Shown one piece after another: positions 1-14,365 of a stretch of 17,953 nucleotides of DNA. Origin of the DNA: a virus (Duplodnaviria; Heunggongvirae; Uroviricota; Caudoviricetes). Position 1 is the first letter of the stretch; each line of letters opens with the position of its first letter. Made by a program: the position numbers and the translations under genes. The notes beneath the pieces are model-generated. The model did no database searches and had not been told where the DNA came from. It saw only the letters and a program-made list of their open reading frames with translations. The stretch lies in the IMG/VR virus record IMGVR_UViG_2657244940_000020; one strand, 5' to 3'.

Positions 1-669
1 ATGTCTGAACAATTAGTCACACCTGAAAACGTCACCACGAAAGATGGAAAAATCAACCTGCTGGATCTCAACCGTCAGCAGATGCGGGAGTTTTTTAAAG
101 ATTTAGGTGAAAAACCCTTCCGCGCCGATCAGGTGATGAAGTGGATGTATCACTATTGCTGCGACAACTTTGATGAGATGACCGACATCAATAAAGTGTT
201 GCGCGGCAAACTGAAAGAGGTGGCGGAAATCCGTGCACCGGAAGTGGTTGAAGAACAGCGTTCATCTGACGGCACCATTAAATGGGCGATCGCCGTTGGC
301 GATCAGCGCGTTGAAACGGTATATATCCCGGAAGACGACCGTGCCACGCTCTGCGTCTCTTCGCAGGTGGGGTGTGCGCTGGAGTGTAAATTCTGTTCCA
401 CCGCCCAGCAGGGCTTTAACCGCAACCTGCGGGTATCGGAAATTATCGGCCAGGTGTGGCGTGCGGCGAAAATTGTCGGCGCAGCAAAAGTCACCGGTCA
501 GCGCCCAATCACTAACGTAGTGATGATGGGTATGGGCGAGCCGCTGCTCAACCTGAACAACGTCGTTCCGGCGATGGAAATCATGCTTGATGATTTCGGT
601 TTTGGCCTGTCAAAACGTCGCGTCACGCTTTCCACTTCCGGTGTGGTTCCGGCGCTGGATAAACTGGGT
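1..669 (+). pseudogene. rlmN: 5' fragment of rlmN (radical-SAM 23S rRNA/tRNA m2A methyltransferase), codons 1-223 only; C-terminal ~160 codons missing
   Basis: ORF 1..846 translation begins [23 protein letters not shown]... and contains the radical-SAM CxxxCxxC motif (CALECKFC); matches my memory of E. coli RlmN up to ...VVPALDKLG (nt 669), after which the sequence no longer resembles RlmN. Reading frame continues without stop to 846. Confidence 0.85.
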
Positions 670-846
670 CCAGTTTTTCCAGCCGTTTGGTCAGGGCATA
701 TTCTGCGCAACGATGTCTGTGATATCAGCCTGAACCTGCAACTGACGGAACGTGTGCTGGTCAGCACTGACGGCAGTGTGTCGAGTGTTGAAGCTGTAGC
801 GGAACCCGATGAACCTGAAGAAATGTGGACGGTGAAACGTGGCTGA
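670..846 (+). pseudogene. C-terminal remnant of a P2 R-like tail completion gene, fused in frame to the rlmN fragment; stop overlaps start of S
   Basis: Frame-1 translation [58 protein letters not shown] lies immediately upstream of and overlaps the S-like gene (GTG 839; stop TGA 844-846), the position gene R occupies in P2-like phages. Assignment from gene order and vague family resemblance only. Confidence 0.4.
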
Positions 847-1285
847 ACTGCAGAAGGTGGACGACTGGCTGAGTGCTTTGCTGGCGAATCTGGAGCCAGC
901 CGCCAGAAGCCGCATGATGCGCCAGCTGGCGCAGGAACTGCGCCGGACACAGCAGCAGAATATCAGGATGCAGCGCAACCCTGACGGCAGCAGCTATGAG
1001 CCGCGACGGGTAACAGCACGAAGTAAAAAAGGGCGCATCAAACGTCAGATGTTTGCAAAGCTGCGCACCACAAAATACCTGAAAACCGCCGCCAGCGCGG
1101 ATTCTGCCAGCGTACAGTTTGAAGGTAAGGTGCAGAGCATTGCCCGCGTTCACCATTATGGCCTGCGTGATCGCGTCAGCCGCAAAGGACCGGAGGTCCG
1201 TTACGCAGAGCGTCGCCTTCTGGGTGTAAATGATGATGTTGAGGCAATGACCCGCGACATGATTCTGCAATGGCTGGCGGGGTGA
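839..1285 (+). CDS. S: Tail completion / virion morphogenesis protein (P2 gpS family), 148 aa, GTG start
   Basis: ORF 839..1285 ([25 protein letters not shown]...), size close to P2 gpS (~150 aa) and positioned directly upstream of V as in P2. Confidence 0.75.
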
Positions 1286-1289
1286 TCTT

Positions 1290-1307
1290 TGTATCAGCAC
1301 TGATACA
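1290..1307 (+). promoter_or_regulatory. Candidate Ogr/Delta-activated late promoter element (TGT-N12-ACA dyad) upstream of V
   Basis: TGTatcagcactgatACA at 1290-1307, part of a near-perfect palindrome TTGTATCAGCACTGATACAA, in the S-V intergenic space about 55 bp before the V start codon. P2 late promoters carry a TGT-N12-ACA dyad for Ogr. Confidence 0.5.
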
Positions 1308-1353
1308 AGTTGCAGCACTGCCGCCTTTCTTCCCCTGATGGCAACCTTTCCCT

Positions 1354-1932
1354 ATGAACGCACAATTAACCGAAATCATGCGCCTTATCACCAACCTGAT
1401 CCGCACTGGTGTAGTCACCGAAGTGGACCGGGAGAATTGGCTTTGCCGGGTGAAAACGGGCGAGCTTGAAACCAACTGGATCAGCTGGCTGACGCTGCGT
1501 GCCGGGAATGCCCGCACATGGTGGCGACCATCGGAAGGTGAGCAGGTGGTGCTGCTGAGTCTGGGCGGCAATCTGGAAACCGCGTTTGCCCTGCCTGCGG
1601 TCTACTCAAACCAGTTTCCGCCACCTTCAGATTCTGAGGACGGCAACGTGGTTGAGTACCCGGACGGTGGCTGGTTTGAATACGAACCCGCCACCGGGCG
1701 CTGGTATGTCAGGGGCATCAAATCAATGGTCATTGAGGCCGCTGACAACATCACCATGAAAACCAGTGAGTTTGTACTGGAGGCTGACCGCACGCGCATT
1801 AACAGCGAAGTGGTGATCAATGGTGGCGTTACCCAGGGCGGCGGAGCGATGAGTTCTAACGGGATCGTGGTTGATGCGCATCAGCATACTGGCGTCCTGA
1901 AAGGCGGCGACACAACCGGAGGCCCGGTATGA
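1354..1932 (+). CDS. V: Baseplate central spike protein (P2 gpV family), 192 aa
   Basis: ORF 1354..1932; N-terminal region and the C-terminal His-containing tip motif (VVDAHQHTG) are typical of gpV spikes; stop overlaps W start (ATGA at 1929-1932). Confidence 0.88.
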   Translation: MNAQLTEIMRLITNLIRTGVVTEVDRENWLCRVKTGELETNWISWLTLRAGNARTWWRPSEGEQVVLLSLGGNLETAFALPAVYSNQFPPPSDSEDGNVVEYPDGGWFEYEPATGRWYVRGIKSMVIEAADNITMKTSEFVLEADRTRINSEVVINGGVTQGGGAMSSNGIVVDAHQHTGVLKGGDTTGGPV

Positions 1933-2288
1933 CGCTTTATAGCGGGATGAACAATACCAGCGGTAAAGCCATTACTGATATTGACCATCTGCGCCAGTCG
2001 GTGCGGGACATTCTGCTGACGCCGCAGGGTAGCCGCATTGCTCGTCGGGAATATGGTTCCCTGCTGTCGGCACTGATAGATCAGCCACAAAATCCGGCGT
2101 TACGCCTGCAGGTTATGTCGGCTGTGTATGTGGCACTGAGTCGCTGGGAGCCACGGCTGACGCTGGATTCCATCACTATTAACAGCAATTTTGACGGTTC
2201 AATGGTGGTGGCGCTGAACGGGCGGCGTAATAACGGTGTGCCTGTTTCCCTTTCCGTATCAACAGGAGCAGAGAATGGCAGTGATTGA
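1929..2288 (+). CDS. W: Baseplate wedge protein (P2 gpW / GPW-gp25 family), 119 aa
   Basis: ORF 1929..2288, size and position between V and J as in P2; translationally coupled to V. Confidence 0.82.
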   Translation: MTLYSGMNNTSGKAITDIDHLRQSVRDILLTPQGSRIARREYGSLLSALIDQPQNPALRLQVMSAVYVALSRWEPRLTLDSITINSNFDGSMVVALNGRRNNGVPVSLSVSTGAENGSD

Positions 2289-3183
2289 CCTTTCGCAGTT
2301 GCCTGCGCCGCAGATTGTGGATGTGCCGGACTTTGAGACGCTGCTTGCCGAACGCAAGGCAGAATTTGTGGCGCTTCATCCGAAAGATGAGCAGGAAGCA
2401 GTGATCCGCACGCTGGAACTGGAATCTGAACCCGTCACCAAATTGCTGCAGGAGAACGCTTACCGTGAGTTGCTTCTGCGCCAGCGCATTAACGAAGCCG
2501 CGCAGGCTGTGATGGTGGCTTACGCGATGGGCAGCGATCTTGACCAGCTCGCTGCCAACTACAACGTGAAACGCCTGACGGTGACGCCTGCTGATAATGA
2601 CGCTGTGCCGCCCGTTGCAGCTGTGATGGAAAGCGATGAAGCGTTACGCCTGCGTGTGCCTGCAGCCTTTGAAGGGCTTTCAGTTGCGGGGCCAACTGCA
2701 GCTTATGAATTTCATGCCCGAAGCGCCGACGGTCGGGTGGCGGATGCCAGTGCAACCAGCCCGGCACCTGCAGAGGTGGTGCTGACTGTCCTTAGCCGCG
2801 AAGGCGATGGAACTGCAGAAAAAGACCTGCTGGACGTGGTGGAAAAAGCTCTGAACAGTGAGAACGTCCGCCCGGTGGCTGACCGTCTTACGGTTCGCAG
2901 CGCAGAAATCATCCCGTATCGCGTGGAAGCCACCATTTTTCTCTATCCGGGACCGGAAGCAGAGCCGGTAATGGCAGCGGCAAAAGCCAGCCTGCAGAAG
3001 TACATCGCCAGTCAGACACGTCTTGGTCGGGATATTCGCCGTAGCGCCATCTTTGCCGCCCTGCATGTTGAGGGTGTGCAGCGTGTGGAGCTGGCTTCTC
3101 CTCTGGCGGATGTGGTCCTGAACAAAACACAGGCGGCATCATGTACGCAGTGGAGCGTAACCAACGGAGGAACGGATGAATAG
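2275..3183 (+). CDS. J: Baseplate assembly protein J (P2 gpJ family), 302 aa
   Basis: ORF track gives 2236..3183, but ATG at 2275 is preceded by AGGAGCAGAG (RBS) and yields MAVIDLSQLPAP..., 302 aa, matching P2 gpJ length; overlaps end of W. Confidence 0.88.
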   Translation: MAVIDLSQLPAPQIVDVPDFETLLAERKAEFVALHPKDEQEAVIRTLELESEPVTKLLQENAYRELLLRQRINEAAQAVMVAYAMGSDLDQLAANYNVKRLTVTPADNDAVPPVAAVMESDEALRLRVPAAFEGLSVAGPTAAYEFHARSADGRVADASATSPAPAEVVLTVLSREGDGTAEKDLLDVVEKALNSENVRPVADRLTVRSAEIIPYRVEATIFLYPGPEAEPVMAAAKASLQKYIASQTRLGRDIRRSAIFAALHVEGVQRVELASPLADVVLNKTQAASCTQWSVTNGGTDE

Positions 3184-3781
3184 TCTGCTGCCACCGGGTT
3201 CAACACTACTGGAGCGCCGACTGGCGCAAACCTGCAGCGGGATTTCTGATCTGCAGGTGCCGCTGCGTGACTTGTGGAATCCGGCAACCTGTCCAGTCAG
3301 TTTCCTGCCTTATCTCGCCTGGGCGTTCTCTGTGGATCGCTGGGACGAGAGCTGGACAGAAAGCGTCAAGCGCCAGGTGGTGAAGGATGCTTTTTATATT
3401 CATCAGCATAAAGGGACCACCAGTGCCGTGCGGCGGGTGGTGGAGCCGTTCGGCTTTCTGATCCGCATTATTGAGTGGTGGCAGACCGGAGAGGCACCGG
3501 GCACGTTTCGTCTGGATATCGGTGTGCAGGACCAGGGCATCACTGAAGATACCTATCTGGAACTTGAGCGACTGATAAGCGATGCCAAACCATGTAGCCG
3601 TCACATGATCGGCATGTCCATCAACCTGCAGACCAGCGGCCCGCATTGGGTGGGAGCCGCCAGCTATCTTGGCGAAGAAATCACGATCTATCCGTATATC
3701 AACGAAACAATTATTTCCGGCGGCACCGCGCATGAAGGCGGGGCGGTCCATGTTATTGACACAATGAGAGTGAATCCATGA
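3176..3781 (+). CDS. I: Baseplate/tail protein I (P2 gpI family), 201 aa
   Basis: ORF 3176..3781, start overlaps J stop, stop overlaps H start (ATGA); position between J and the tail fibre gene. Confidence 0.82.
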   Translation: MNSLLPPGSTLLERRLAQTCSGISDLQVPLRDLWNPATCPVSFLPYLAWAFSVDRWDESWTESVKRQVVKDAFYIHQHKGTTSAVRRVVEPFGFLIRIIEWWQTGEAPGTFRLDIGVQDQGITEDTYLELERLISDAKPCSRHMIGMSINLQTSGPHWVGAASYLGEEITIYPYINETIISGGTAHEGGAVHVIDTMRVNP

Positions 3782-5319
3782 GCACAAAATTTTATACCCT
3801 GCTAACGGATATTGGCGCGGCGAAACTTGCCAGCGCCGCCGCGCTCGGTGTGCCTTTAAAAATTACCCATATGGCGGTCGGCGATGGTGGCGGAACATTG
3901 CCAACGCCGGACGCAAAGCAGACAGCATTAGTAAATGAGAAACGCCGGGCTGCGCTGAATATGCTCTATATCGACCCGCAGAACAGCAGCCAGATTATTG
4001 CTGAACAGGTGATCCCTGAAAACGAGGGCGGTTGGTGGATACGTGAAGTGGGCCTGTTTGATGAATCAGGGGCATTGATTGCCGTGGGAAACTGCCCGGA
4101 AAGCTATAAGCCGCAACTGGCTGAAGGTAGCGGGCGCACTCAGACCGTGCGCATGGTGCTGATTACCAGCAGCACGGACAATATCACCCTGAAAATCGAC
4201 CCTGCTGTAGTGCTGTCAACCCGCAAGTATGTGGATGACAAGGCACTGGAGCTGAAGGTGTACGCGGATGATCAGATGGCAAAACATCTTGCCGCACCGG
4301 ACCCGCATTCACAGTATGCACCCAAAGAAAGTCCGACGTTTACCGGGACACCCAAAGCGCCAACGCCAGCAGCAGGGAATAACACCACGCAGATTGCGAC
4401 CACCGCGTTTGTTCAGGCGGCTCTGACGGCTCTTATTAATGGTGCGCCAGCCACGCTGGACACGCTGAAAGAAATAGCCGCAGCCATTAACAATGATCCG
4501 AATTTCAGTACCACCATTAACAATGCGCTGGCACAAAAAGCGCCGCTGTCGAGTCCAGCACTCACCGGAACGCCAACAGCACCTACTGCGGCACAGTCGG
4601 TCAACAATACACAGATTGCCACTACAGCTTTTGTGAAATCAGCGATTGCAGCAATGGTGGGTTCTGCACCCGCGGCACTGGATACACTGAACGAACTGGC
4701 GGCGGCACTGGGGAATGATCCGAACTTTGCCACGACAATGCTTAATGCGCTGGCAGGTAAACAACCGCTGGACAATACGCTTACCAATTTGAGTGGAAAG
4801 GATGTAGCTGGTCTTCTCGCATACCTTAGTTTGGGAGAAGGTTCAGCATTACCTGTTGGTGCGCCTGTTCCGTGGCCGTCAGCAACTCCACCAACTGGAT
4901 GGCTAAAATGCAATGGAGCAGCGTTTACCGCTTCTCAGTACCCCAAATTGGCTCAGGCCTATCCTGCACTCAGATTGCCTGATTTAAGAGGCGAATTTAT
5001 TCGTGGCTGGGATGACGGGCGCGGGGCTGATAGCGGGCGAGGTTTGCTTTCTGCTCAGGGTGCTATGTCATTCGATCACCGGCACTGGATTCCAACTTCA
5101 CCAAGTTCTGGCGGAGATGGTCCAATGACGGCTGTTTTTATAGATAACAATGCGTCAATGGCTTATTACCCGAACGGAACTAATGAATATAACCCAAACC
5201 CGTCAACTGGCACGGTATTGCAGACATATACCGCAAAGGCAACACTTGGTTCAAAAATGTTTGGTAGTGAAACGAGGCCGCGAAACGTTGCATTTAACTA
5301 CATTGTGAGGGCTGCATAA
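3778..5319 (+). CDS. H: Tail fibre protein (P2 gpH-like N-terminus; C-terminal ~160 aa lie inside the invertible segment), 513 aa
   Basis: ORF 3778..5319; N-terminus MSTKFYTLLTDIGAAKLA...MAVGDGGG...ESYKPQLAEGSG is the conserved gpH baseplate-attachment region; central tail-fibre repeat motif; C-terminus has a phage tail-collar-like motif (WLKCNGAAFTASQYPKLAQAY). Confidence 0.9.
   Translation: MSTKFYTLLTDIGAAKLASAAALGVPLKITHMAVGDGGGTLPTPDAKQTALVNEKRRAALNMLYIDPQNSSQIIAEQVIPENEGGWWIREVGLFDESGALIAVGNCPESYKPQLAEGSGRTQTVRMVLITSSTDNITLKIDPAVVLSTRKYVDDKALELKVYADDQMAKHLAAPDPHSQYAPKESPTFTGTPKAPTPAAGNNTTQIATTAFVQAALTALINGAPATLDTLKEIAAAINNDPNFSTTINNALAQKAPLSSPALTGTPTAPTAAQSVNNTQIATTAFVKSAIAAMVGSAPAALDTLNELAAALGNDPNFATTMLNALAGKQPLDNTLTNLSGKDVAGLLAYLSLGEGSALPVGAPVPWPSATPPTGWLKCNGAAFTASQYPKLAQAYPALRLPDLRGEFIRGWDDGRGADSGRGLLSAQGAMSFDHRHWIPTSPSSGGDGPMTAVFIDNNASMAYYPNGTNEYNPNPSTGTVLQTYTAKATLGSKMFGSETRPRNVAFNYIVRAA
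4330..4770 (+). repeat. Two tandem ~219-bp (73-codon) repeat units inside H (4330-4548 and 4552-4770)
   Basis: Protein units SPTFTGTPKAPT...NNTTQIATTAFV...APATLDTLKEIAAAINNDPNFSTTINNALAQKAPL and SPALTGTPTAPT...NNTQIATTAFV...APAALDTLNELAAALGNDPNFATTMLNALAGKQPL are separated by one codon; diverged at DNA level. Confidence 0.6.
4814..4839 (+). other. Left 26-bp DNA-invertase crossover site (hix/gix-like), inside the H coding sequence
   Basis: TTCTCGCATACC-TT-AGTTTGGGAGAA: two imperfect 12-bp inverted half-sites around central TT. It matches the reverse complement of the site at 6714-6739 at 20 of 26 positions, including an identical GTTTGGGAGAA arm. Confidence 0.7.
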
Positions 5320-5918
5320 TGGCACAGGCAAAATTAAACAACGAACTTATCGCCACAGAGGCAGGCGATATTACAGTATTTAACTATGATGACGAGACGC
5401 GAGAATACCTTTCTATATCTGTTGAATATCTGGCCGTGGGCGTAGGTATTCCAGCCAACTCATGCATTGACGCCCCCGGCGAGAGCAAAGAGGGTTTTGC
5501 TATTTGCCGGACAGCCGATTTTGCCGCCTGGGAATACGTCGCGGATCACCGTGGTGAAACGGTGTACAGCACTGAAACAGGCGAGCCGGAGATCGTTTCT
5601 TTGCCTGGTGAATACCCGGAAGGCACCACCACGCTGGCACCTGATACGCCTTACGATACGTGGAACGGTCGCGAGTGGGTGACAGATACGGAAGCGCAGA
5701 ACGCGGCGGACGTGGAAGCGGCGGAACAACAGAAAGCTGCGCTCCTGCTTGAGGCCCAGACAACGATCAGTCTCTGGCAGACAGAACTACAGTTAGGCAT
5801 TATCAGCGATGAAGATAAAGCTAGCCTGATCGCCTGGATGAGCTACATCAAAGCACTACAAGCCGTCGATATATCAACGGCTCCTGTTATTATCTGGCCT
5901 GTTCCTCCGGAGAGTTAG
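5319..5918 (+). CDS. G: Tail fibre assembly chaperone (P2 gpG / Tfa family), 199 aa
   Basis: ORF 5319..5918 directly after H (TAATG overlap); C-terminal ...STAPVIIWPVPPES motif of Tfa chaperones. Confidence 0.82.
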   Translation: MAQAKLNNELIATEAGDITVFNYDDETREYLSISVEYLAVGVGIPANSCIDAPGESKEGFAICRTADFAAWEYVADHRGETVYSTETGEPEIVSLPGEYPEGTTTLAPDTPYDTWNGREWVTDTEAQNAADVEAAEQQKAALLLEAQTTISLWQTELQLGIISDEDKASLIAWMSYIKALQAVDISTAPVIIWPVPPES

Positions 5919-6342
5919 GCCACTCGATATCTGGTGCGCTGGAGGTGTTTAAAACTTCCAGAGCATCCAGATAATCAAGCCACAAACCATACTGTTCAAG
6001 CTCATCGCCTTTCAGACGACCAATAGCGGCTTTACCGGGCCATTGCTTACTGTTCATGTATTCGTTGGCCTGGTGAATTAGTAGCTGTCTTTCTGATTCA
6101 GTAATTTCAATAAGTTCTTCATGCGTGGGTGGAGGAATATCTGCCCACGCAGGCAGCCCATCATCTCCGGCAATACGGATTTTTCCTTGTGGCGGTTCAT
6201 CCATAAACTCACTGATAATATTTTGATTTACTTCCTTAGCGTCTGATAAATCCCATCCCTCTGATTTATATTTATCAATCATATCCACAGGGAAAAAAGC
6301 ATTATGCCTTGCGCTATAAACATATTCGTTCATATAAATCAC
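5890..6342 (-). CDS. Alternative tail fibre assembly chaperone (G'), 150 aa
   Basis: Minus-strand ORF 5890..6342, C-terminus ...SSAPDIEWPNSPEEQAR parallels the G C-terminus; lies downstream of H'v on the minus strand; 3' end overlaps the 3' end of G by 29 nt. Confidence 0.78.
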   Translation of the reverse strand: MIYMNEYVYSARHNAFFPVDMIDKYKSEGWDLSDAKEVNQNIISEFMDEPPQGKIRIAGDDGLPAWADIPPPTHEELIEITESERQLLIHQANEYMNSKQWPGKAAIGRLKGDELEQYGLWLDYLDALEVLNTSSAPDIEWPNSPEEQAR

Positions 6343-6353
6343 CCTGAATAAAA

Positions 6354-6727
6354 TTACTCACCAACAGCCCACCAACTGTAATTCATCGATACCGTGTCGC
6401 TGGTTGATGACGTTCTGTAAGCAGAATTAAAGCCGGTTAACGTTGGGCCTTCTGCAGTCATCACGAACCCTCGCCCAGCGCCTAAAGGCGCACCTCCATC
6501 ACCAGAATGAGTAAGCATGGCGCAGTCCGCTTTTTTAGGGAAAGGGATAGGAAATGTAATCCTCATTGTTTGCGTCGATAATTTCGGCATAGCCTCACCT
6601 CGACCATATTGCAGAATTTTACCGTTTGGTAATTTCATCCATCCATCACCACTGGCAAAAGAAGCCATGTCCGGTATCTGATTTTCCCCTGTTCCCACCC
6701 CCCGTTTCGCTGCTTCTCCCAAACCAA
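6354..6727 (-). CDS. Alternative tail-fibre C-terminal cassette (H'v); has no start of its own and is expressed only after inversion fuses it to the H constant region
   Basis: Minus-strand open frame runs from the right crossover site to the stop at 6354 (...GLGEAAKRGVGTGENQIPDMASFASGDGWMKLPNGKILQYGRG...). It is in frame with the H constant part across the crossover dinucleotide. The ATG at 6767 in the ORF track lies outside the invertible segment and is probably not used. Confidence 0.72.
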
Positions 6728-6739
6728 CGTTTATGAAAA
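6714..6739 (+). other. Right 26-bp DNA-invertase crossover site (hix/gix-like)
   Basis: TTCTCCCAAACC-AA-CGTTTATGAAAA; resembles remembered hixL/gix/cix sites (TTnTCnnAAACC ... GGTTTnnGAnAA); inverted relative to the site at 4814-4839 with complementary central dinucleotide. Confidence 0.75.
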
Positions 6740-6794
6740 TGCAGAGATAACGGCTAACTGGCATCATCTCCGGTTTTTATTCAGGGGGATGATC

Positions 6795-7361
6795 ATGCTT
6801 ATTGGCTATGTACGCGTGTCAACAAATGACCAGAACACCGATTTGCAACGCAATGCACTGAACTGTGCGGGATGTGAGCGGATTTTTGAGGATAAAATCA
6901 GTGGCACCAAGTCCGACAGACCGGGGCTGAAAAAGCTGCTCAGGACACTATCGGCAGGAGACACGCTGGTTGTCTGGAAGCTGGACAGACTGGGGCGCAG
7001 TATGCGGCATCTTGTTACGCTGATAGAAGAGCTGCGCCAGCGTGGCGTGAATTTCCGAAGCCTGACTGACAGTATTGATACCAGCACCCCAATGGGCCGT
7101 TTCTTTTTTCATGTCATGGGTGCCCTGGCTGAAATGGAACGCGAACTGATAGTTGAACGTACCAGGGCGGGGCTGGCTGCAGCTCGTGCTAAAGGCAGAG
7201 TAGGTGGACGCCGTCCTAAGTTGACCAGCGAACAGTGGGCACAGATTGGGCGTTTACTCGAGGCCGGAGAATCAAGACAGCGTATTGCACTGATTTTTGA
7301 TGTAGGCGTTTCTACCATTTATCGAAAATTTCCGGCAAATAAGAACAATAAATCTCCCTGA
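6795..7361 (+). CDS. Serine-recombinase DNA invertase (Gin/Pin/Hin/Cin family), 188 aa
   Basis: MLIGYVRVSTNDQNTDLQRNAL...VVWKLDRLGRSMRHL...GRFFFHVMGALAEMERELI...GGRRPKLT closely matches remembered Gin/Pin N-terminal catalytic and C-terminal HTH regions. GGGGG at 6784-6788 sits 6 nt before ATG 6795; an in-frame ATG at 6789 is an alternative start. Confidence 0.9.
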   Translation: MLIGYVRVSTNDQNTDLQRNALNCAGCERIFEDKISGTKSDRPGLKKLLRTLSAGDTLVVWKLDRLGRSMRHLVTLIEELRQRGVNFRSLTDSIDTSTPMGRFFFHVMGALAEMERELIVERTRAGLAAARAKGRVGGRRPKLTSEQWAQIGRLLEAGESRQRIALIFDVGVSTIYRKFPANKNNKSP

Positions 7362-7409
7362 ATCAGCTTTATTTTGATTATCCCTGAAAGCAGACAAATA
7401 CCGTCATTT

Positions 7410-7427
7410 TGTGTGAATAACGGTACA
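7410..7427 (+). promoter_or_regulatory. Candidate Ogr/Delta-activated late promoter element (TGT-N12-ACA) upstream of FI
   Basis: TGTgtgaataacggtACA at 7410-7427 in the invertase-FI intergenic region, ~85 bp upstream of the FI ATG, which has a strong RBS (CAGGAGGT at 7488-7495). Confidence 0.55.
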
Positions 7428-7503
7428 ACTGCGCTTAGCTGTTTGTCAGGCACAATCACTTCAACATAGGGCGAAGCCTAATCCAATCAGGAGGTTCGCC
7501 ACT

Positions 7504-8676
7504 ATGGCTCAGGATTACCACCACGGGGTGCGCGTTGTTGAAGTCAACGAAGGCACCCGATCCATTACCACGGTGAGCACCGCCATCGTGGGTATGGTCT
7601 GCACGGGCGATGATGCCGATGCAAAAATGTTTCCTCTTAATAAACCCGTGCTGATCACTGATGTGCTGACTGCCAGCGGTAAAGCGGGTGAGTCAGGCAC
7701 GCTGGCTCGTTCGCTGGATGCCATCGCTGACCAGGCAAAACCCGTGACCGTTGTTGTGCGTGTGCCGCAGGGTGAAACGGAAGAAGAAACCACGACCAAT
7801 ATCATCGGAGCAGTGACCGCTGAAGGTAAAAAAACAGGCATGAAAGCCCTGTTATCTGCCCAGTCACAGCTCGGCGTTAAACCGCGCATTCTCGGCGTGC
7901 CAGGTCACGACACGAAGGCGGTAGCTACTGAGTTGCTGAGCGTGGCGCAAAGCCTGCGTGGATTTGCTTACCTGTCAGCGTATGGTTGCAAGACAGTGCA
8001 GGAAGCAATCACTTACCGTGAAAACTTCAGTCAGCGTGAAGGAATGCTGATCTGGCCCGACTTTACTGGCTGGGACACGGTGCTGAATGCCGAAGCAACG
8101 GCTTATGCCACCGCCCGTGCGCTTGGTCTGCGCGCCAAAATTGACGAGCAGACCGGATGGCACAAAAGCCTGTCCAACGTGGGCGTTAACGGTGTCACCG
8201 GAATTTCTGCTGATGTGTTCTGGGATCTGCAGGACCCGGCAACCGATGCGGGACTGCTGAACCAGAACGACGTCACCACCCTTATCCGCAAAGACGGTTT
8301 TCGCTTCTGGGGTTCCCGCTGCCTGAGTGATGACCCGCTCTTTGCCTTCGAAAACTACACCCGCACGGCGCAGGTGCTGACGGACACGATGGCAGAAGCG
8401 CACATGTGGGCGGTGGATAAACCGCTGAATCCGTCGCTGGCCCGCGACATTATCGAGGGTATCCGCGCCAAAATGCGCAGCCTGGTCAGTCAGGGCTATC
8501 TCATTGGTGGTGATTGCTGGCTGGATGAGTCGGTGAACGACAAAGACACGCTGAAAGCCGGAAAACTCACCATCGACTACGACTACACGCCAGTGCCGCC
8601 ACTTGAAAACCTGATGCTGCGTCAGCGCATCACCGATCAGTACCTGGTGAATTTCTCCAGCCAGGTCAGCGCGTAA
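7504..8676 (+). CDS. FI: Contractile tail sheath protein (P2 gpFI family), 390 aa
   Basis: ORF 7504..8676 with strong SD; size (P2 FI ~396 aa) and position before the tube gene. Confidence 0.9.
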
Positions 8677-8685
8677 GGGGACAAC

Positions 8686-9201
8686 ATGGCTTTACCACGC
8701 AAATTAAAACACCTGAACCTGTTTAATGACGGGAACAACTGGCAGGGGATCGTTGAGTCGCTGACGCTGCCGAAATTTACCCGCAAATATGAGAAGTATC
8801 GCGGCGGCGGAATGCCGGGTGCAGTGGATGTGGATCTGGGGCTGGATGACGGCGCACTGGATACGGAATTTTCCATTGGTGGTACTGAACTGCTGCTGTT
8901 TAAGCAGATGGGCAAAGCCACGGTAGATGGTATCCAGTTGCGCTTTACCGGCTCTATCCAGCGTGACGATACCGGGGAAGTGCAGGCCGTGGAGCTTGTG
9001 GTGCGTGGACGTCACAAAGAAGTGGATTCCGGCGAGTGGAAGACGGGCGAAAGCAACACCACCAAAGTGACCAGTACCAACAGCTACGCGAAGCTGACTA
9101 TAAATGGTGAGGTGCTCTATGAAGTGGACCTTATCAACATGGTGGAAATTGTGGACGGTGTGGACCTGATGGAAGCGCACCGCAACGCCCTCGGCCTCTG
9201 A
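8686..9201 (+). CDS. FII: Tail tube protein (P2 gpFII family), 171 aa
   Basis: ORF 8686..9201 directly after the sheath gene; size matches P2 FII (~172 aa). Confidence 0.88.
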   Translation: MALPRKLKHLNLFNDGNNWQGIVESLTLPKFTRKYEKYRGGGMPGAVDVDLGLDDGALDTEFSIGGTELLLFKQMGKATVDGIQLRFTGSIQRDDTGEVQAVELVVRGRHKEVDSGEWKTGESNTTKVTSTNSYAKLTINGEVLYEVDLINMVEIVDGVDLMEAHRNALGL

Positions 9202-9255
9202 TGTATCTGAACGGCGCGGGATACCGCGCCAGAACCCAATTTACAGGACAGCAAA

Positions 9256-9558
9256 ATGAGCGATAAGCAGACTGAAAAGACTATTCAACTGGATACCCCC
9301 ATCAAGCGCGGTAAAACAGAAATCACCGAAATTGTGCTGCGTAAACCGCAGTCCGGTGCGCTGCGCGGTACACGCCTGCAGGCCATTATGGATATGGATG
9401 TGAACGCGATGATGACCGTGATCCCCCGCATCTCCAGTCCGGCACTGACTGCACAGGAAATTGCAGAGATGGACCCGGCAGATCTCACTGCCATGTCGGT
9501 TGAGGTTGTCACTTTTTTGTTGAAGAAGTCGGTGCTTGCCGGTTTACCGACAGCCTGA
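9256..9558 (+). CDS. E: Tail assembly chaperone E (P2 gpE), 100 aa
   Basis: ORF 9256..9558 upstream of the tape measure gene; contains the T6G slippery site near its 3' end. Confidence 0.8.
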   Translation: MSDKQTEKTIQLDTPIKRGKTEITEIVLRKPQSGALRGTRLQAIMDMDVNAMMTVIPRISSPALTAQEIAEMDPADLTAMSVEVVTFLLKKSVLAGLPTA

Positions 9559-9692
9559 CGGTTGACGATCTGGTGGCTGATATCGCCACCATCTTTCACT
9601 GGCCGCCATCCGTTACTGACGTTATGCCGCTGACCGAAGTGCTGGAATGGCGGTATAAAGTGATTCAGAGAAGCGGGGCCAACGATGAGTGA
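9256..9692 (+). CDS. Tail assembly chaperone E+E' made by programmed -1 frameshift at TTTTTTG (9513-9519); predicted ~145 aa
   Basis: Slippery heptamer T TTT TTG at 9513-9519 in the E frame. The -1 frame is open from there (FFVEEVGACRFTDSLTVDDLVADIATIFHWPPSVTDVMPLTEVLEWRYKVIQRSGANDE*) to TGA 9690-9692, overlapping the T start codon. Same arrangement as P2 E/E+E'. Confidence 0.65.
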
Positions 9693-12600
9693 TAATAACC
9701 TGCGCCTGCAGGTCATTCTTAATGCGGTTGACAAACTCACCCGCCCATTCCGTGCTGCACAGGCCAGTTCGAAAGAGCTGGCTGGCGCAATTCAGAATAC
9801 CCGAAACAGCCTCAAAGAACTAAATAAGCAGGCTGGCAGAATTGATGAATTTCGCAAGACGCGCTCGCAACTAGCCATAACAGCCAACAACCTGAACGCA
9901 GCCCGCGAAGAGGCGGCAAAACTCGCCACACAATTTGCTGCCACTAACAGGCCAACCGCCGCGCAGGCAAAGTTATTCAGTCAGGCCAAAACACGAGTAC
10001 AGGAACTTCAGCAGACCTATAACGGCTTGTTGGGGGCGGTCCAGAGACAACGTCAGGCACTTAAAGAATCAGGGATTGATACCAGACAACTCAGTAGTGC
10101 CCAGCGAGAACTTAAGAAAAATGCCGAAGAAACTCGTCAGGCACTGGAGGGCCAGCAAAAAGCACTTAAACGTCTGGGTGAACAACAGGCACGGATGAAC
10201 GCTGCCAGAGAACAATACTCAAGACGGCTTGAAGTGCGCGATCGCATCGCAGGAGCCGGAGCCACCACCACGGCTGCAGGGCTGGCAATGGGCGCGCCAG
10301 TGATGGCGGCGGTAAAAAGCTATACCAGCATGGAAGATGCCATGAAAGGTGTGGCAAAGCAGGTCAATGGTCTGCGTGACGATAATGGCAACCGCACTGT
10401 GCGTTTTTACGAAATGCAGGATGCCATCAAAGCTGCCAGTGAACAGCTGCCAATGGAAAACGGTGCTGTGGACTTCGCCGCACTGGTTGAAGGTGGTGCG
10501 CGCATGAATGTGGCAAACCCTGACGACAGCTGGGAGGACCAGAAACGTGACCTGCTGGCCTTCGCCAGTACGGCAGCAAAGGCGGCAACAGCCTTTGAGC
10601 TGCCAGCGGATGAACTGTCAGAAAGTCTGGGGAAAATCGCCCAGCTCTACAAAATACCAACCCGCAATATTGAACAGCTCGGTGATGCGCTGAACTATCT
10701 GGATGATAACGCTATGTCGAAAGGGGCAGACATCATTGATGTCATGCAACGCCTGGGCGGTGTGGCTGATCGTCTGGATTATCGTAAAGCGGCGGCGCTG
10801 GGTTCCACCTTCCTGACACTGGGGGCTGCGCCGGAGGTCGCTGCCAGTGCTGCCAACGCGATGGTGCGTGAATTGTCCATTGCCACCATGCAAAGCAAGA
10901 GTTTCTTTGAAGGGATGAATCTGCTGAAACTCAATCCTGAAGTGATTGAAAAGCAGATGACGAAGGATGCGATGGGAACTATCCAGCGTGTGCTGGAGAA
11001 GGTGAACGCACTGCCGCAGGACAAGCGTCTGTCTGCCATGACCATGTTGTTTGGTAAAGAGTTTGGCGATGACGCGGCGAAACTGGCAAACAACCTGCCG
11101 GAACTACAGCGCCAGCTAAAACTGACAGCGGGCAATGATGCGCTCGGTTCCATGCAGAAAGAATCCGACATCAACAAGGACTCACTTTCTGCTCAGTGGT
11201 TGCTGGTTAAAACCGGAGCGCAGAATACCTTCAGCAGCCTGGGCGAAACGCTGCGCCAGCCGCTGATAGATATTCTGTACACGGTGAAAAGCATCACGGG
11301 GGCGTTGCGTCGCTGGGTGGAAGCTAACCCTGAACTGACGGGTACACTGATGAAAGTAGCCGCGGTTGTGGCTGCGGTTACTGTCGGCCTCGGCACCTTA
11401 GCGGTGGCGCTGGCTGCAGTGCTGGGGCCGCTGGCAGTGATCCGTCTGGGATTCTCTGTGCTGGGTATCAAAACGTTACCTTCCGTTACGGCAGCAGTAA
11501 CTCGAACCAGCAGCGCGTTGTCCTGGCTGGCTGGCGCACCACTGATACTGCTGCGACGCGGGCTTGCTTCATCGGGCAACGCTGCGGGTTTACTTACTGC
11601 ACCGTTGTCATCTTTGCGCCGCACGGCATCACTGACGGGAAATGTCTTGAAAACTGTAGCAGGTGCGCCAGTTGCACTTTTGCGGTCTGGATTATCCGGT
11701 TTACGTGCTGTTGCTGTGATGTTTATGAATCCTCTGGCGGTACTGCGCGGTGGACTGGCAGCCGCAGGCGCGGTGCTGCGAGTGCTTGCATCTGGTCCGC
11801 TGGCGATGCTGCGCGTTGCCCTGTATGCCATATCTGGTCTGTTAGGTGCTCTGCTTAGTCCGATAGGTCTTGTGGTTACTGCACTGGCGGGTGTGGCGCT
11901 GGTTGTCTGGAAATACTGGCAACCCATCACCGCATTTCTCGGTGGCGTGGTGGAAGGATTCAAAGCGGCGGCAGGTCCCATCAGTGCAGCGTTTGAACCA
12001 CTTAAGCCCGTGTTCCAGTGGATTGGCGACAAAGTGCAGGCGCTGTGGGGCTGGTTTACTGATCTGCTGACGCCTGTTAAGTCGACCTCTGCCGAACTGC
12101 AGAGCGCAGCGGCAATGGGGCGACGATTCGGGGAGGCACTGGCGGAAGGGCTGAATATGGTCATGCATCCGCTGGACTCCCTGAAATCCGGCGTTTCCTG
12201 GTTGCTGGATAAACTCGGCATTGTCAGTAAAGAGGCTGCAAAGGCGAAACTGCCGGAAAGTGTGACGCGTCAGCAACCTGCGACGGTGAATGCAGACGGT
12301 AAAGTGATGATGCCATCGGGTGGTTTTCCGTCATGGGGATATAGCTTTGCGGGGATGTATGACAGCGGCGGCTATATCCCGCGCGGGCAGTTTGGCATCG
12401 TCGGTGAAAACGGGCCGGAAATTGTCAACGGCCCGGCAAACGTGACCAGCCGGAGAAATACCGCTGCACTGGCTGCGGTTGTTGCCGGAATGATGGGCGT
12501 TGCTGCCGCGCCTACAGAGCTTCCACCGTTGCACCCTTTGGCACTTCCCGCGAAAGGCGGCGAAGCGATGGTGAGTCGTGCAGCCACTGTGCCGCCCATT

Positions 12601-12762
12601 CAACGGATTGAGGCACCGACGCAGATCATCATTCAGACGCAGCCAGGACAAAGTGCGCAGGATATTGCGCGGGAGGTGGCCCGCCAGCTTGATGAACGTG
12701 AACGCAGGCTGAAGGCAAAAGCCAGGAGTAACTACAGCGATCAGGGGGGATACGACGCATGA
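9685..12762 (+). CDS. T: Tail tape measure protein (P2 gpT family), 1025 aa
   Basis: ORF 9685..12762; long alpha-helical N-terminal region, hydrophobic segment with periodic L-R-x-G-L repeats, position after E/E'; start overlaps E' stop. Confidence 0.9.
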   Translation: MSDNNLRLQVILNAVDKLTRPFRAAQASSKELAGAIQNTRNSLKELNKQAGRIDEFRKTRSQLAITANNLNAAREEAAKLATQFAATNRPTAAQAKLFSQAKTRVQELQQTYNGLLGAVQRQRQALKESGIDTRQLSSAQRELKKNAEETRQALEGQQKALKRLGEQQARMNAAREQYSRRLEVRDRIAGAGATTTAAGLAMGAPVMAAVKSYTSMEDAMKGVAKQVNGLRDDNGNRTVRFYEMQDAIKAASEQLPMENGAVDFAALVEGGARMNVANPDDSWEDQKRDLLAFASTAAKAATAFELPADELSESLGKIAQLYKIPTRNIEQLGDALNYLDDNAMSKGADIIDVMQRLGGVADRLDYRKAAALGSTFLTLGAAPEVAASAANAMVRELSIATMQSKSFFEGMNLLKLNPEVIEKQMTKDAMGTIQRVLEKVNALPQDKRLSAMTMLFGKEFGDDAAKLANNLPELQRQLKLTAGNDALGSMQKESDINKDSLSAQWLLVKTGAQNTFSSLGETLRQPLIDILYTVKSITGALRRWVEANPELTGTLMKVAAVVAAVTVGLGTLAVALAAVLGPLAVIRLGFSVLGIKTLPSVTAAVTRTSSALSWLAGAPLILLRRGLASSGNAAGLLTAPLSSLRRTASLTGNVLKTVAGAPVALLRSGLSGLRAVAVMFMNPLAVLRGGLAAAGAVLRVLASGPLAMLRVALYAISGLLGALLSPIGLVVTALAGVALVVWKYWQPITAFLGGVVEGFKAAAGPISAAFEPLKPVFQWIGDKVQALWGWFTDLLTPVKSTSAELQSAAAMGRRFGEALAEGLNMVMHPLDSLKSGVSWLLDKLGIVSKEAAKAKLPESVTRQQPATVNADGKVMMPSGGFPSWGYSFAGMYDSGGYIPRGQFGIVGENGPEIVNGPANVTSRRNTAALAAVVAGMMGVAAAPTELPPLHPLALPAKGGEAMVSRAATVPPIQRIEAPTQIIIQTQPGQSAQDIAREVARQLDERERRLKAKARSNYSDQGGYDA

Positions 12763-13244
12763 TGATGGTGCTGGGATTGTACGTGTTTATGCTGCGCACC
12801 GTGCCGTATCAGGAGCTGCAGTATCAACGCAGCTGGCGACATGCGGCAAACAGCCGGGTAAACCGACGTCCGTCCACGCAGTTTCTGGGACCGGACAACG
12901 ACATGCTGACGCTTTCCGGTGTTCTTATGCCGGAGATAACAGGTGGCAGGATGTCGTTGCTGGCACTGGAGCAGATGGCAGAACAGGGGAAAGCATGGCC
13001 CCTGATTGAAGGCAGCGGCACGATTTATGGCATGTATGTGATTGAGGGACTGAATCAGACTAAAACGGAGTTTTTCCGCGATGGTATGCCGCGCCGGATT
13101 GAGTTTACCCTGTCGCTCAAACGGGTGGATGAATCCCTGTCCGATATGTTCGGTGATCTCAGTGCGCAGCTGAATAATCTGCAGGATACGGCAACGTCTG
13201 CCTTAAGCGATATCAGTAAAACGGTGGGAGGGCTGCTGTCGTGA
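12759..13244 (+). CDS. U: Tail protein U (P2 gpU family), 161 aa
   Basis: ORF 12759..13244, ATG overlaps T stop; size matches P2 gpU (~159 aa). Confidence 0.85.
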   Translation: MMMVLGLYVFMLRTVPYQELQYQRSWRHAANSRVNRRPSTQFLGPDNDMLTLSGVLMPEITGGRMSLLALEQMAEQGKAWPLIEGSGTIYGMYVIEGLNQTKTEFFRDGMPRRIEFTLSLKRVDESLSDMFGDLSAQLNNLQDTATSALSDISKTVGGLLS

Positions 13245-14365
13245 ATTTCAGCTCTGAACTGCTTAACAAAGGCAACAAAACTCCCGCATTCAGCATCAGT
13301 ATTGAGGGGAAGGATATCACCACTGTGCTGGATAACCGCCTGATGAGTCTGACGTTGACGGACAATCGGGGCTTTGAAGCAGACCAGCTTGATCTGGAGC
13401 TGGACGACGCCGACGGAAAAATCGTGCTGCCGCGCCGTGGGGCGGTCATCACGCTGGCGCTGGGCTGGAAGGGGCAGCCGCTTTTCCCGAAAGGGGCATT
13501 CACGGTGGACGAGATTGAACACACCGGCGCACCGGATCGCCTGACTATCCGGGCGCGAAGTGCTGATTTTAGGGAAACGCTGAATACCCGCCGTGAAAAA
13601 TCGTGGCACAAGACCACTGTCGGGGAAGTGGTGAAGGAAATAGCCGCGCGTCATAAGCTGAAGATGGCACTGGGTAAAGACCTGTCGGATAAGCCCGTGG
13701 AGCATATAGACCAGACTAATGAGAGTGACGGCAGTTTTCTGATGCGGCTGGCGCGCCAGTACGGTGCCATCGCGTCGGTGAAAAATGGCAATCTGTTATT
13801 CATCCGGCAGGGACAGGGCAAAAGCGCCAGCGGTAAACCACTGCCGGTGATCTCAATCACACGTAAGGACGGCGACAGTCACCGCTTTACCCTGGCAGAT
13901 CGCGGAGCCTACACGGGCGTAATTGCCAGCTGGTTGCATACCCGCGAACCCGCGAAGAAAGAAAGCACCACGGTGAAGCGTAAGCGCAGGACTAAGAAGC
14001 AGAAGAAAGAGCCGGAAGCGAAGCAGGGCGATTACCTGGTGGGTACAGATGAAAACGTGCTGGTACTTAATCGCACCTATGCCAACCGGAGCAACGCCGA
14101 ACGGGCGGCGAAAATGCAGTGGGAACGCCTGCAACGCGGCGTTGCGTCATTCTCGCTACAACTGGCAGAAGGTCGGGCAGATCTCTACACGGAAATGCCA
14201 GTGAAAGTCAGTGGCTTTAAACAGCCGATAGATGATGCGGAATGGACCATTACGACTCTGACGCATACTGTCAGCCCGGATAACGGTTTTACGACCAGTT
14301 TGGAGCTTGAAGTGAAGATTGATGATTTCGAAATGGAAGGATTCTTCGCAATGGAGAACTTTTAA
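13241..14365 (+). CDS. D: Tail protein D (P2 gpD / late control D family), 374 aa, GTG start overlapping U stop
   Basis: ORF 13241..14365 (MNFSSELLNKGNKTPAFSISIEGKDITTVLDNR...), size close to P2 gpD (387 aa), last gene before ogr as in P2. Confidence 0.87.
   Translation: MNFSSELLNKGNKTPAFSISIEGKDITTVLDNRLMSLTLTDNRGFEADQLDLELDDADGKIVLPRRGAVITLALGWKGQPLFPKGAFTVDEIEHTGAPDRLTIRARSADFRETLNTRREKSWHKTTVGEVVKEIAARHKLKMALGKDLSDKPVEHIDQTNESDGSFLMRLARQYGAIASVKNGNLLFIRQGQGKSASGKPLPVISITRKDGDSHRFTLADRGAYTGVIASWLHTREPAKKESTTVKRKRRTKKQKKEPEAKQGDYLVGTDENVLVLNRTYANRSNAERAAKMQWERLQRGVASFSLQLAEGRADLYTEMPVKVSGFKQPIDDAEWTITTLTHTVSPDNGFTTSLELEVKIDDFEMEGFFAMENF

What the first reader, a model, noticed from the sequence alone, without database searches (positions are those of the whole stretch)
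4814..6739. Gin/Pin-type invertible tail-fibre switch with both crossover sites identifiable
Two 26-bp sites with internal dyad symmetry lie in inverted orientation at 4814-4839 (inside H) and 6714-6739, with complementary central dinucleotides (TT and AA). Between them, the plus strand carries the current H C-terminus and chaperone G; the minus strand carries an alternative C-terminal cassette with no start codon (6354-6727) and an alternative chaperone G'. Inverting in silico at the central dinucleotide fuses the H constant region to the alternative cassette in frame (...LLAYL-GLGEAAKRGVG...). The invertase gene sits just outside the right site. The switch appears intact, so the population should be a mix of two fibre specificities.
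Basis: seen in the sequence. Interest (0 to 1): 0.6.

Follow-up and report, generated by a model that had tools for sequence, protein, structure and literature searches.

The report
Invertible tail-fibre switch in P2-like prophage
This is a textbook Gin/Cin/Pin-type DNA inversion switch in a P2-like E. coli prophage that swaps the tip of the tail fibre; it is real and apparently active, but it is an ordinary, already well-described kind of system.

Summary
Two 26-bp gix/cix-like sites (4814-4839, 6714-6739) lie in inverted orientation with TT/AA cores. They are the only such sites in the window (0 expected by chance). They bracket Hv+G on the plus strand and H'v+G' on the minus strand. A 188-aa serine invertase (76% identical to Mu Gin, 79% to P1 Cin) starts 55 bp beyond the right site. 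Inverting 4828-6725 in silico gives an in-frame 473-aa fibre.

That exact protein exists in public assemblies. So do both predicted 54-nt recombinant junctions. In three assemblies one contig carries a parental and a recombinant junction together. This maps the crossover to the central TT and indicates that the element flips. Among complete E. coli genomes, 269 have related prophages with H'v silent next to the invertase and 47 have it fused to the H constant part.

Corrections are minor:
- An in-frame ATG at 6767 outside the segment lets gene callers annotate the silent cassette as a free ORF.
- The invertase probably starts at 6795.
- In this contig the prophage's left half is replaced by rlmN. 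That junction is seen in only one draft assembly.

Phase-variable fibre segments in P2-like E. coli prophages are already demonstrated experimentally. Interest is low.

The parts
3778..4827 (+). Constant N-terminal part of tail-fibre gene H (residues 1-350). It lies outside the invertible segment.
   Evidence: Pfam Phage_tail_fib matches residues 1-150. The crossover falls in codon 350.
4814..4839 (+). Left crossover site, TTCTCGCATACC TT AGTTTGGGAGAA, inside H.
   Evidence: It resembles P1 cixL (..CCTAAACC TT GGTTTAAGAGAA) and Mu gix.
4828..6725 (.). Invertible segment: 1,898 bp between the two core dinucleotides.
   Evidence: The exact recombinant junctions predicted from these limits are found in L013-L016. 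BLAST shows the segment on the opposite strand relative to its flanks.
4828..5319 (+). Hv: the currently expressed C-terminal cassette (H residues 351-513), of the Collar / T4 gp12-gp37-like type.
   Evidence: Pfam Collar. PDB short tail fibre 9cuy E=2e-18 and T4 gp37 2xgf E=1e-14. PHROG 523.
5319..5918 (+). G: tail-fibre assembly chaperone paired with Hv (199 aa).
   Evidence: Pfam Caudo_TAP E=2e-34. PHROG 105.
5890..6333 (-). G': alternative chaperone paired with H'v (147 aa from ATG 6333). It converges on G and overlaps its 3' end by 29 nt.
   Evidence: Pfam Caudo_TAP E=1e-28. PHROG 188. The public gene calls are 147 aa.
6354..6725 (-). H'v: silent alternative C-terminal cassette (123 aa after fusion), of the Gp53-like_C type. 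It has no start codon inside the segment.
   Evidence: Pfam Gp53-like_C E=1e-13. In-frame fusion. The exact fused 473-aa protein is in public data.
6714..6739 (+). Right crossover site, TTCTCCCAAACC AA CGTTTATGAAAA.
6795..7361 (+). Din-family serine DNA invertase (188 aa; an alternative ATG at 6789 would give 190 aa).
   Evidence: Pfam Resolvase + HTH_7. Gin structures E=1e-92. 76% identical to Gin and 79% to Cin. Ser9, Arg7, Asp64, Arg65 and Arg68 are present.
6813..6884 (+). Putative recombinational (Fis) enhancer inside the 5' end of the invertase gene. This is inferred, not shown.
   Evidence: It aligns without gaps to the enhancer annotated in P1 cin (CDS nt 19-90) at 76% identity. The candidate proximal core centre lies about 97 bp from the right-site centre, compared with about 96 bp in Mu.

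Best explanation
This is a two-state, Gin/Cin/Pin/Hin-type (Din family) site-specific inversion switch in the late tail operon of a P2-like E. coli prophage.

**Proposed mechanism.**
- The 188-aa serine recombinase encoded just right of the segment binds as dimers to the two 26-bp sites.
- Inferred: it is activated by a Fis-bound enhancer lying in the first ~90 bp of its own gene.
- It cuts both sites at the central TT/AA dinucleotide, rotates one half of the tetramer by 180 degrees and religates. This flips 4828-6725.

**Consequence of each orientation.**
- As in the window: the H constant part (residues 1-350) is joined to a Collar/gp12-like tip. Its chaperone G is co-transcribed.
- Inverted: the same constant part is joined in frame to a Gp53-like tip, followed by its own chaperone G'.

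Lysogen populations and phage bursts therefore carry two receptor-binding specificities.

**Shown here:** the sites, the frames, the domain content, the invertase family, the existence of the inverted form, and the crossover position.

**Inferred:** Fis/enhancer dependence, the flipping rate, and the difference in host range.
For: **Sites and frames**
- The sites are unique in the window and not expected by chance.
- The fusion is in frame.
- The two cassettes have unrelated tip domains, and each has its own Caudo_TAP chaperone.

**Invertase**
- It is 76% identical to Gin and 79% to Cin, with the catalytic Ser9.
- It has the residues that McLean et al. 2013 (PMC3798978) report as uniquely conserved in Fis/enhancer-dependent invertases. 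These are basic residues at Hin positions 47, 48 and 51 (here K46, K47, R50) and Q151/R154/L155 (here the Q-I-G-R-L motif), read from the sequence.
- The 5' end of the gene aligns without gaps to P1's annotated enhancer.

**The inverted form exists**
- The exact predicted H' (473 aa) is present on 4 public contigs, and the exact H on 9 or more.
- The exact 54-nt recombinant junctions are found in L013-L016.
- L014 carries the parental-left and recombinant-left junctions on one contig. L013 and L015 carry the parental-right and recombinant-right junctions on one contig.
- The two sites differ at positions 12 and 15, so these junctions place the crossover within the central TT.

**Related prophages and literature**
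- In complete E. coli genomes, related prophages occur in both states: 269 silent and 47 fused. One example is ECONIH5.
- Goldberg et al. 2014 (PMC4272514) showed by sequencing and PCR that such segments in P2-like prophages of EPEC flip within clonal cultures.
Against: - No reads were available. Co-existence of both orientations in one culture is inferred from contig structure. Two prophage copies locked in opposite states in one genome would look the same.
- No sigma-70 consensus promoter was found for the invertase.
- The Fis-site assignment rests on alignment within a conserved coding region. Synonymous sites are only slightly more conserved in the enhancer stretch than elsewhere: 41-63% against 32-39%, on small counts.
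- In the window's own assembly only one orientation was assembled (L002/L009). The prophage there appears truncated on the left.
Confidence: 0.93

Rival explanations
1. The switch is a structurally intact fossil. In this particular copy, a prophage remnant fused to rlmN, the segment is frozen because the invertase is not expressed or the late operon is never transcribed. The inverted forms seen elsewhere reflect past events or other copies.
For: - The left half of the prophage is missing in this contig.
- No consensus promoter was found upstream of the invertase.
- The window's own assembly shows a single orientation.
Against: - The remnant and the full prophages differ by 0-3 substitutions over up to 13 kb, so nothing has decayed.
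- Invertase, sites and enhancer region are identical to those in samples that show both junctions.
- Din invertase promoters are naturally weak (background knowledge of Mu gin).
- The rlmN junction occurs in one draft contig only and may be a misassembly.
Confidence: 0.05
2. The parental and recombinant junctions found together in single assemblies come from two separate copies of the prophage in the same genome, fixed in opposite orientations, or from assembler artefacts. They do not come from ongoing flipping.
For: - Many E. coli genomes have several matching places: up to 7 per genome, median 1.
- The palindromic contig ends are short: 184-244 nt of flank.
Against: - The shared repeat is only about 15 bp with a mismatch. 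That is too short to collapse in a k-mer graph, so both junction sequences must be present in the reads.
- The same pattern recurs in three independent assemblies (L013, L014 and L015, with L016 a second contig of the L014 assembly).
- Even under this rival, the two copies would have to derive from each other by exactly the predicted site-specific crossover.
Confidence: 0.02

Closest known systems
Phage Mu G segment / Gin and phage P1 C segment / Cin
   Same: - The layout is the same: constant 5' part of the fibre gene outside the segment, two convergent [variable C-terminus + chaperone] cassettes inside, and the invertase immediately outside one site, transcribed away from it.
- The sites are 26 bp with a 2-bp core. 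The TT core and the GGTTT..GAGAA half-site match P1 cixL.
- The invertase is 76-79% identical.
- The enhancer position within the invertase 5' coding region is the same.
   Different: - The host phage is P2-like (S V W J I H G ... FI FII E T U D ogr), not Mu or P1.
- The segment is shorter: 1.9 kb against about 3 kb in Mu and 4.2 kb in P1.
- The cassettes are unrelated to Mu S/S' (27-32% identity or less over short local matches). They are Collar/gp12-like and Gp53-like domains.
- The flanking inverted repeats are only the 26-bp sites, whereas P1 has 0.6-kb repeats (background knowledge).
Invertible tail-fibre segments of P2-like prophages in E. coli (EPEC E2348/69; Goldberg et al. 2014, PMC4272514) and the Fels-2 Fin system of Salmonella (Kutsukake et al. 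2006, cited in that paper)
   Same: - Same phage family and same position, the Z/fun hotspot between G and FI (bioRxiv 10.1101/2024.10.15.618418).
- Same invertase family.
- A two-variant version was experimentally shown to co-exist in both orientations in clonal cultures.
   Different: - I did not align the EPEC or Fels-2 loci to this one, so allele-level identity is unknown.
- One EPEC locus has three repeats and four variants. This one has two sites only.
e14 P segment / Pin (E. coli K-12) and Salmonella Hin/hix
   Same: Same recombinase family and site architecture. In e14 the inversion fuses stfE and ycfK reading frames.
   Different: - e14 is a lambdoid remnant.
- Hin flips a promoter rather than a coding cassette, and the hin gene lies inside its segment (background knowledge).

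Membership tests
Din family (Gin/Cin/Pin/Hin) Fis-dependent DNA inversion systems | Small serine recombinase: an N-terminal catalytic domain with a Ser nucleophile and the Arg/Asp/Arg/Arg set, plus a C-terminal HTH. It should be closely related to Gin/Cin. | tested here: met
   - Pfam Resolvase + HTH_7.
- E=1e-92 to the Gin structures.
- 76% identical to Gin and 79% to Cin.
- R7, S9, D64, R65 and R68 read.
Din family (Gin/Cin/Pin/Hin) Fis-dependent DNA inversion systems | Two 26-bp imperfectly dyad-symmetric sites in inverted orientation, with a non-palindromic 2-bp core. | tested here: met
   Compared with Mu gixL/gixR and P1 cixL.
Din family (Gin/Cin/Pin/Hin) Fis-dependent DNA inversion systems | Strand exchange at the central dinucleotide. 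| tested here: met
   Recombinant junctions in L013-L016 keep left-site position 12 and right-site position 15. This bounds the crossover to the TT core.
Din family (Gin/Cin/Pin/Hin) Fis-dependent DNA inversion systems | Recombinational enhancer with two Fis sites in cis, about 100 bp from the nearest site, within the invertase 5' coding region. | tested here: inconclusive
   - Gapless alignment to P1's annotated enhancer at 76% identity.
- G...C 15-mers at 6816-6830 and 6865-6879, found by my own reading against the Fis core definition in PMC4784862.
- The excess conservation at synonymous sites is small.
- Fis binding was not tested.
Din family (Gin/Cin/Pin/Hin) Fis-dependent DNA inversion systems | Invertase residues that contact Fis or the enhancer: basic residues at Hin positions 47, 48 and 51, and Q151/R154/L155. 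| tested here: met
   K46, K47, R50 and the motif A-Q-I-G-R-L-L are read. The criterion comes from PMC3798978.
Din family (Gin/Cin/Pin/Hin) Fis-dependent DNA inversion systems | Dependence on Fis and on negative supercoiling, and strict inversion selectivity. | not testable with these tools
   This needs in vitro recombination or a fis mutant.
Invertible tail-fibre host-range module (Mu G / P1 C type) | Constant N-terminal fibre part outside the segment. Two alternative C-terminal cassettes, each with its own chaperone, on opposite strands. Both orientations read in frame. | tested here: met
   The exact H and H' proteins both exist in public data.
Invertible tail-fibre host-range module (Mu G / P1 C type) | Both orientations co-exist in a population. 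| tested here: met
   - Parental and recombinant junctions lie on the same contig in three samples carrying a 99.9-100% identical element.
- 269 silent and 47 fused states occur among complete genomes of related prophages.
- This is indirect, because reads were not seen.
Invertible tail-fibre host-range module (Mu G / P1 C type) | The two orientations confer different host ranges. | not testable with these tools
   The only evidence here is that the tip domains are unrelated: Collar/gp12-like and Gp53-like_C.
P2-like (Peduoviridae) prophage tail gene cluster | Gene order S-V-W-J-I-H-G-[hotspot]-FI-FII-E-T-U-D-ogr. | tested here: met
   Pfam and NCBIfam assignments.
Multiple-inversion systems (shufflon-like, p15B Min, the EPEC three-repeat P2-like locus) | Three or more crossover sites, giving more than two variants. 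| tested here: not met
   Only two sites are found in the 17,953-bp window, even with a relaxed consensus or half-site scans.

The most novel reading that the evidence does not exclude
If the rlmN-gpR junction at 668-698 is real, this copy is a head-less, lysis-less P2 tail module. It keeps a working fibre switch, all baseplate, sheath and tube genes, and ogr. It could then be retained by the host as a phase-variable tailocin-like weapon, or as a source of an invertase that acts in trans on other Din sites.
Probability: 0.03. Interest if true: 0.45.

Novelty: already known. Interest (0 to 1): 0.12.

Why it matters
It matters mainly for annotation.

- **Variable fibre.** The tail fibre of this prophage is a variable gene. 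It can produce a 513-aa or a 473-aa protein.
- **Mis-called genes.** The 'gp53-like domain-containing protein' (136-137 aa) and 'phage tail protein' (176 aa) in public records are silent cassettes. They were mis-called from an ATG outside the segment.
- **Assembly breaks.** The element breaks or folds back short-read assemblies at this locus.

Biologically it adds one more example of host-range bet-hedging by Din-family inversion in P2-like phages. That behaviour has already been demonstrated experimentally.

Tried and rejected
- **Contigs encoding the exact H' protein.** I looked up the chaperone G instead, which returned contigs in both orientations.
Translating 6354-6727 gave stop codons. 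The in-frame stretch is 6354-6728.
- **Invertase promoter.** The sigma-70 scan of 6300-7520 found nothing. This is uninformative for weak Din promoters.
- **Enhancer constraint at synonymous sites.** The window, Mu and P1 show only a small, non-significant excess.
- **Third crossover site (shufflon-like system).** None was found.
- **Cassette similarity to Mu S/S'/U/U'.** The only real similarity is a weak one between chaperones. The cassettes are not the Mu/P1 ones.
- **Solved structure for H'v.** The only match is marginal (9zd7 gp92, E=0.02).
- **Filler at the rlmN/R junction.** The 29 nt match nothing fetched.
Full report

Yes. The window reads TTCTCGCATACC-TT-AGTTTGGGAGAA at 4814-4839 and TTCTCCCAAACC-AA-CGTTTATGAAAA at 6714-6739. 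The pair is the longest inverted repeat found in 3700-7500 (I1). A degenerate pattern written from the two sites matches nowhere else in the 17,953 bases with up to three mismatches, and 200 dinucleotide-preserving shuffles gave no match. A pattern written from the general Din consensus, and a half-site scan, also find only these two sites. Each site is an imperfect dyad: 9 of 12 half-site positions match in the left site and 8 of 12 in the right. The cores are TT and AA on the plus strand, so the sites are in inverted orientation.

**2. What lies between and around the sites?**

- H (3778-5319, 513 aa) has the P2-type N-terminal fibre domain and a Collar domain near its C-terminus.
- G (5319-5918) is a Caudo_TAP chaperone.
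- On the minus strand lie a second Caudo_TAP chaperone (5890-6333) and a 124-codon open frame with a Gp53-like_C domain (6354-6728).
- The gene at 6795-7361 has Resolvase + HTH_7 domains.
- gpI lies upstream and the sheath gene downstream.

The remaining genes are those of a P2-like prophage tail cluster: S, V, W, J, I, H, G, invertase, FI, FII, E, T, U, D, ogr. The host is E. coli. The right flank is ybjL-ybjM-grxA-nfsA at 99.9% identity, and the left 668 bases are rlmN at 100% identity.

**3. In-silico inversion.**

Inverting 4828-6725 keeps both hybrid sites intact. It joins H residues 1-350 to the minus-strand cassette in frame (...AGLLAYL|GLGEAAKRGVGTGENQIPDM...). The product is 473 aa and ends 20 nt before the start of G'.

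The cassette has no start codon inside the segment. The frame stays open through the right site to ATG 6767/6764. Public annotations use that ATG to call a free-standing 136-aa gene. In the other orientation they call a 176-aa gene. These are best read as gene-calling artefacts.

**4. Does the inverted form exist?**

An exact-sequence look-up found the predicted 473-aa H' on four public contigs and the 513-aa H on nine or more. Contigs encoding the identical chaperone G were compared with the window. L002/L009 (GCA_000947375.1, CDRA01000153.1) is 100% identical to window 1-13918. L001/L008 is a complete P2-like prophage that is 99.98% identical from position 698 onward. In L013-L016 the segment lies on the opposite strand relative to a flank.

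The four 54-nt junction sequences were searched exactly:
- The predicted recombinant left junction is in L014.
- The predicted recombinant right junction is in L013, L015 and L016.
- L014 carries the parental-left and recombinant-left junctions on one contig (left flank, segment, left flank reversed).
- L013 and L015 carry the parental-right and recombinant-right junctions on one contig.

The shared repeat is only about 15 bp, so both junction sequences must have been present in the reads of those samples. The simplest reading is a mixed-orientation population. The two sites differ at positions 3, 6, 7, 9, 12 and 15, so the recombinant junctions place the crossover between positions 12 and 15. 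That is the central TT, as expected for a serine invertase.

Among 5,426 complete E. coli genomes, 269 have an H'v-type cassette next to the invertase, as in the window, and 47 have it fused contiguously to the H constant part. ECONIH5 is an example with the whole locus in the inverted layout.

**5. The recombinase and its control.**

- The protein matches the Mu Gin crystal structures at E=1e-92.
- It is 76% identical to Gin and 79% to P1 Cin, the same distance as Gin and Cin from each other.
- The catalytic residues are present: R7, S9, D64, R65, R68.
- So are the residues that McLean et al. (PMC3798978) describe as uniquely conserved in Fis/enhancer-dependent invertases. These are basic residues at Hin positions 47, 48 and 51 (K46, K47, R50 here) and Q151/R154/L155 (Q-I-G-R-L here).
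- The first 120 nt of the gene align without gaps to gin and cin. P1's record annotates CDS nt 19-90 as the enhancer. The equivalent stretch here is 6813-6884, and its proximal part lies about 97 bp from the right-site centre.

Conservation there is only slightly higher than in the rest of the gene. I therefore treat the enhancer as inferred. No consensus sigma-70 promoter was detected.

**6. The two tips.**

Hv resembles T4 gp12/gp37-type collar tips: PDB 9cuy E=2e-18 and 2xgf E=1e-14. H'v is a Gp53-like C-terminal domain with only a marginal solved relative. The two tips are unrelated to each other and to Mu S/S'. Each has its own chaperone family, PHROG 105 and PHROG 188. This fits two different receptor specificities, which I could not test.

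**7. Comparison with what is known.**

The architecture is that of the Mu G and P1 C segments, placed in the G-FI hotspot of a P2-like phage. An invertase with inverted neighbouring genes is reported as common at that position (bioRxiv 10.1101/2024.10.15.618418). Goldberg et al. 2014 (PMC4272514) showed by paired-end sequencing and PCR that such segments in P2-like prophages of EPEC flip within clonal cultures. One of those loci has two variants and another has three repeats and four variants. The present locus is the simple two-site version.

It meets every sequence-testable defining feature of the Din family. Fis dependence and host range remain untested.

**8. Caveat on context.**

Left of position 698 the prophage (most of R, the lysis genes, X, L and the head genes) is replaced by rlmN. 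The join goes through a 29-nt filler and creates an in-frame RlmN-gpR ORF. This junction occurs on a single draft contig in the whole collection. It links loci that are far apart in K-12: the rlmN region with pbpC and ndk on one side, and the ybjL region on the other. It may therefore be a strain-specific rearrangement or a chimeric contig. If it is real, this copy cannot form virions, and the switch would matter only at the DNA level or in trans.

**9. Verdict.**

This is a functional-looking and apparently active Gin/Cin/Pin-type tail-fibre inversion switch. It is a well-known kind of system, so interest is low.

Noticed in passing
window 1-846 (junction at 668-698): rlmN (100% E. coli) is joined through a 29-nt filler of unknown origin to the 3' end of P2 gene R. 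This gives an in-frame 281-aa RlmN(1-223)-gpR fusion ORF and removes the head, lysis, X and L genes of the prophage. The junction is found on only one contig in the whole public collection (GCA_000947375.1 CDRA01000153.1). Prophages 99.98% identical from position 698 are complete on their left side. It may be a rearrangement or an assembly chimera.
   Followed up: partly
window 6740-6767 (minus strand) and public annotations in L001, L008, L013: The frame of whichever cassette is silent stays open across the right site to ATG 6764/6767. Gene callers therefore annotate a free-standing 136/137-aa 'gp53-like' protein. In the other orientation they annotate a 176-aa 'phage tail protein' (WP_072044173.1). 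The GGAG directly abuts the ATG, so real translation seems unlikely.
   Followed up: partly
window 6338-6353, 6775-6790, 7348-7363: A linker of the form ATTCAGGG[T/G/A]GAT occurs three times: just upstream of the G' start (minus strand), just upstream of the invertase start (plus strand), and as the reverse complement of the last codons of the invertase. It may be a scar of modular exchange at cassette-chaperone junctions.
   Followed up: no
L013 (GCA_000936345.1), L014 and L016 (GCA_000936715.1), L015 (GCA_000941435.1): Short-read assemblies fold back at this locus. Contigs run flank, segment, then the same flank reversed for 184-244 nt, and they break inside the segment. This is a practical signature of a mixed-orientation inverton in draft genomes.
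   Followed up: yes
L019 3360-4781 (E. coli ECONIH5, NZ_CP026202.1): In this complete genome a related prophage lies in the inverted orientation. RefSeq splits the fused fibre gene into a partial pseudogene ('missing C-terminus') and a separate 136-aa gp53-like CDS. This suggests either a disruption in the constant part or an annotation problem.
   Followed up: no
window 6789-7361: The exact 190-aa reading of the invertase (from ATG 6789) is catalogued in Salmonella Typhi as 'probable DNA-invertase STY2889' and also in Klebsiella. Its 90%-identity cluster has 2,365 members. The invertase is therefore far more widely shared than the fibre cassettes.
   Followed up: no
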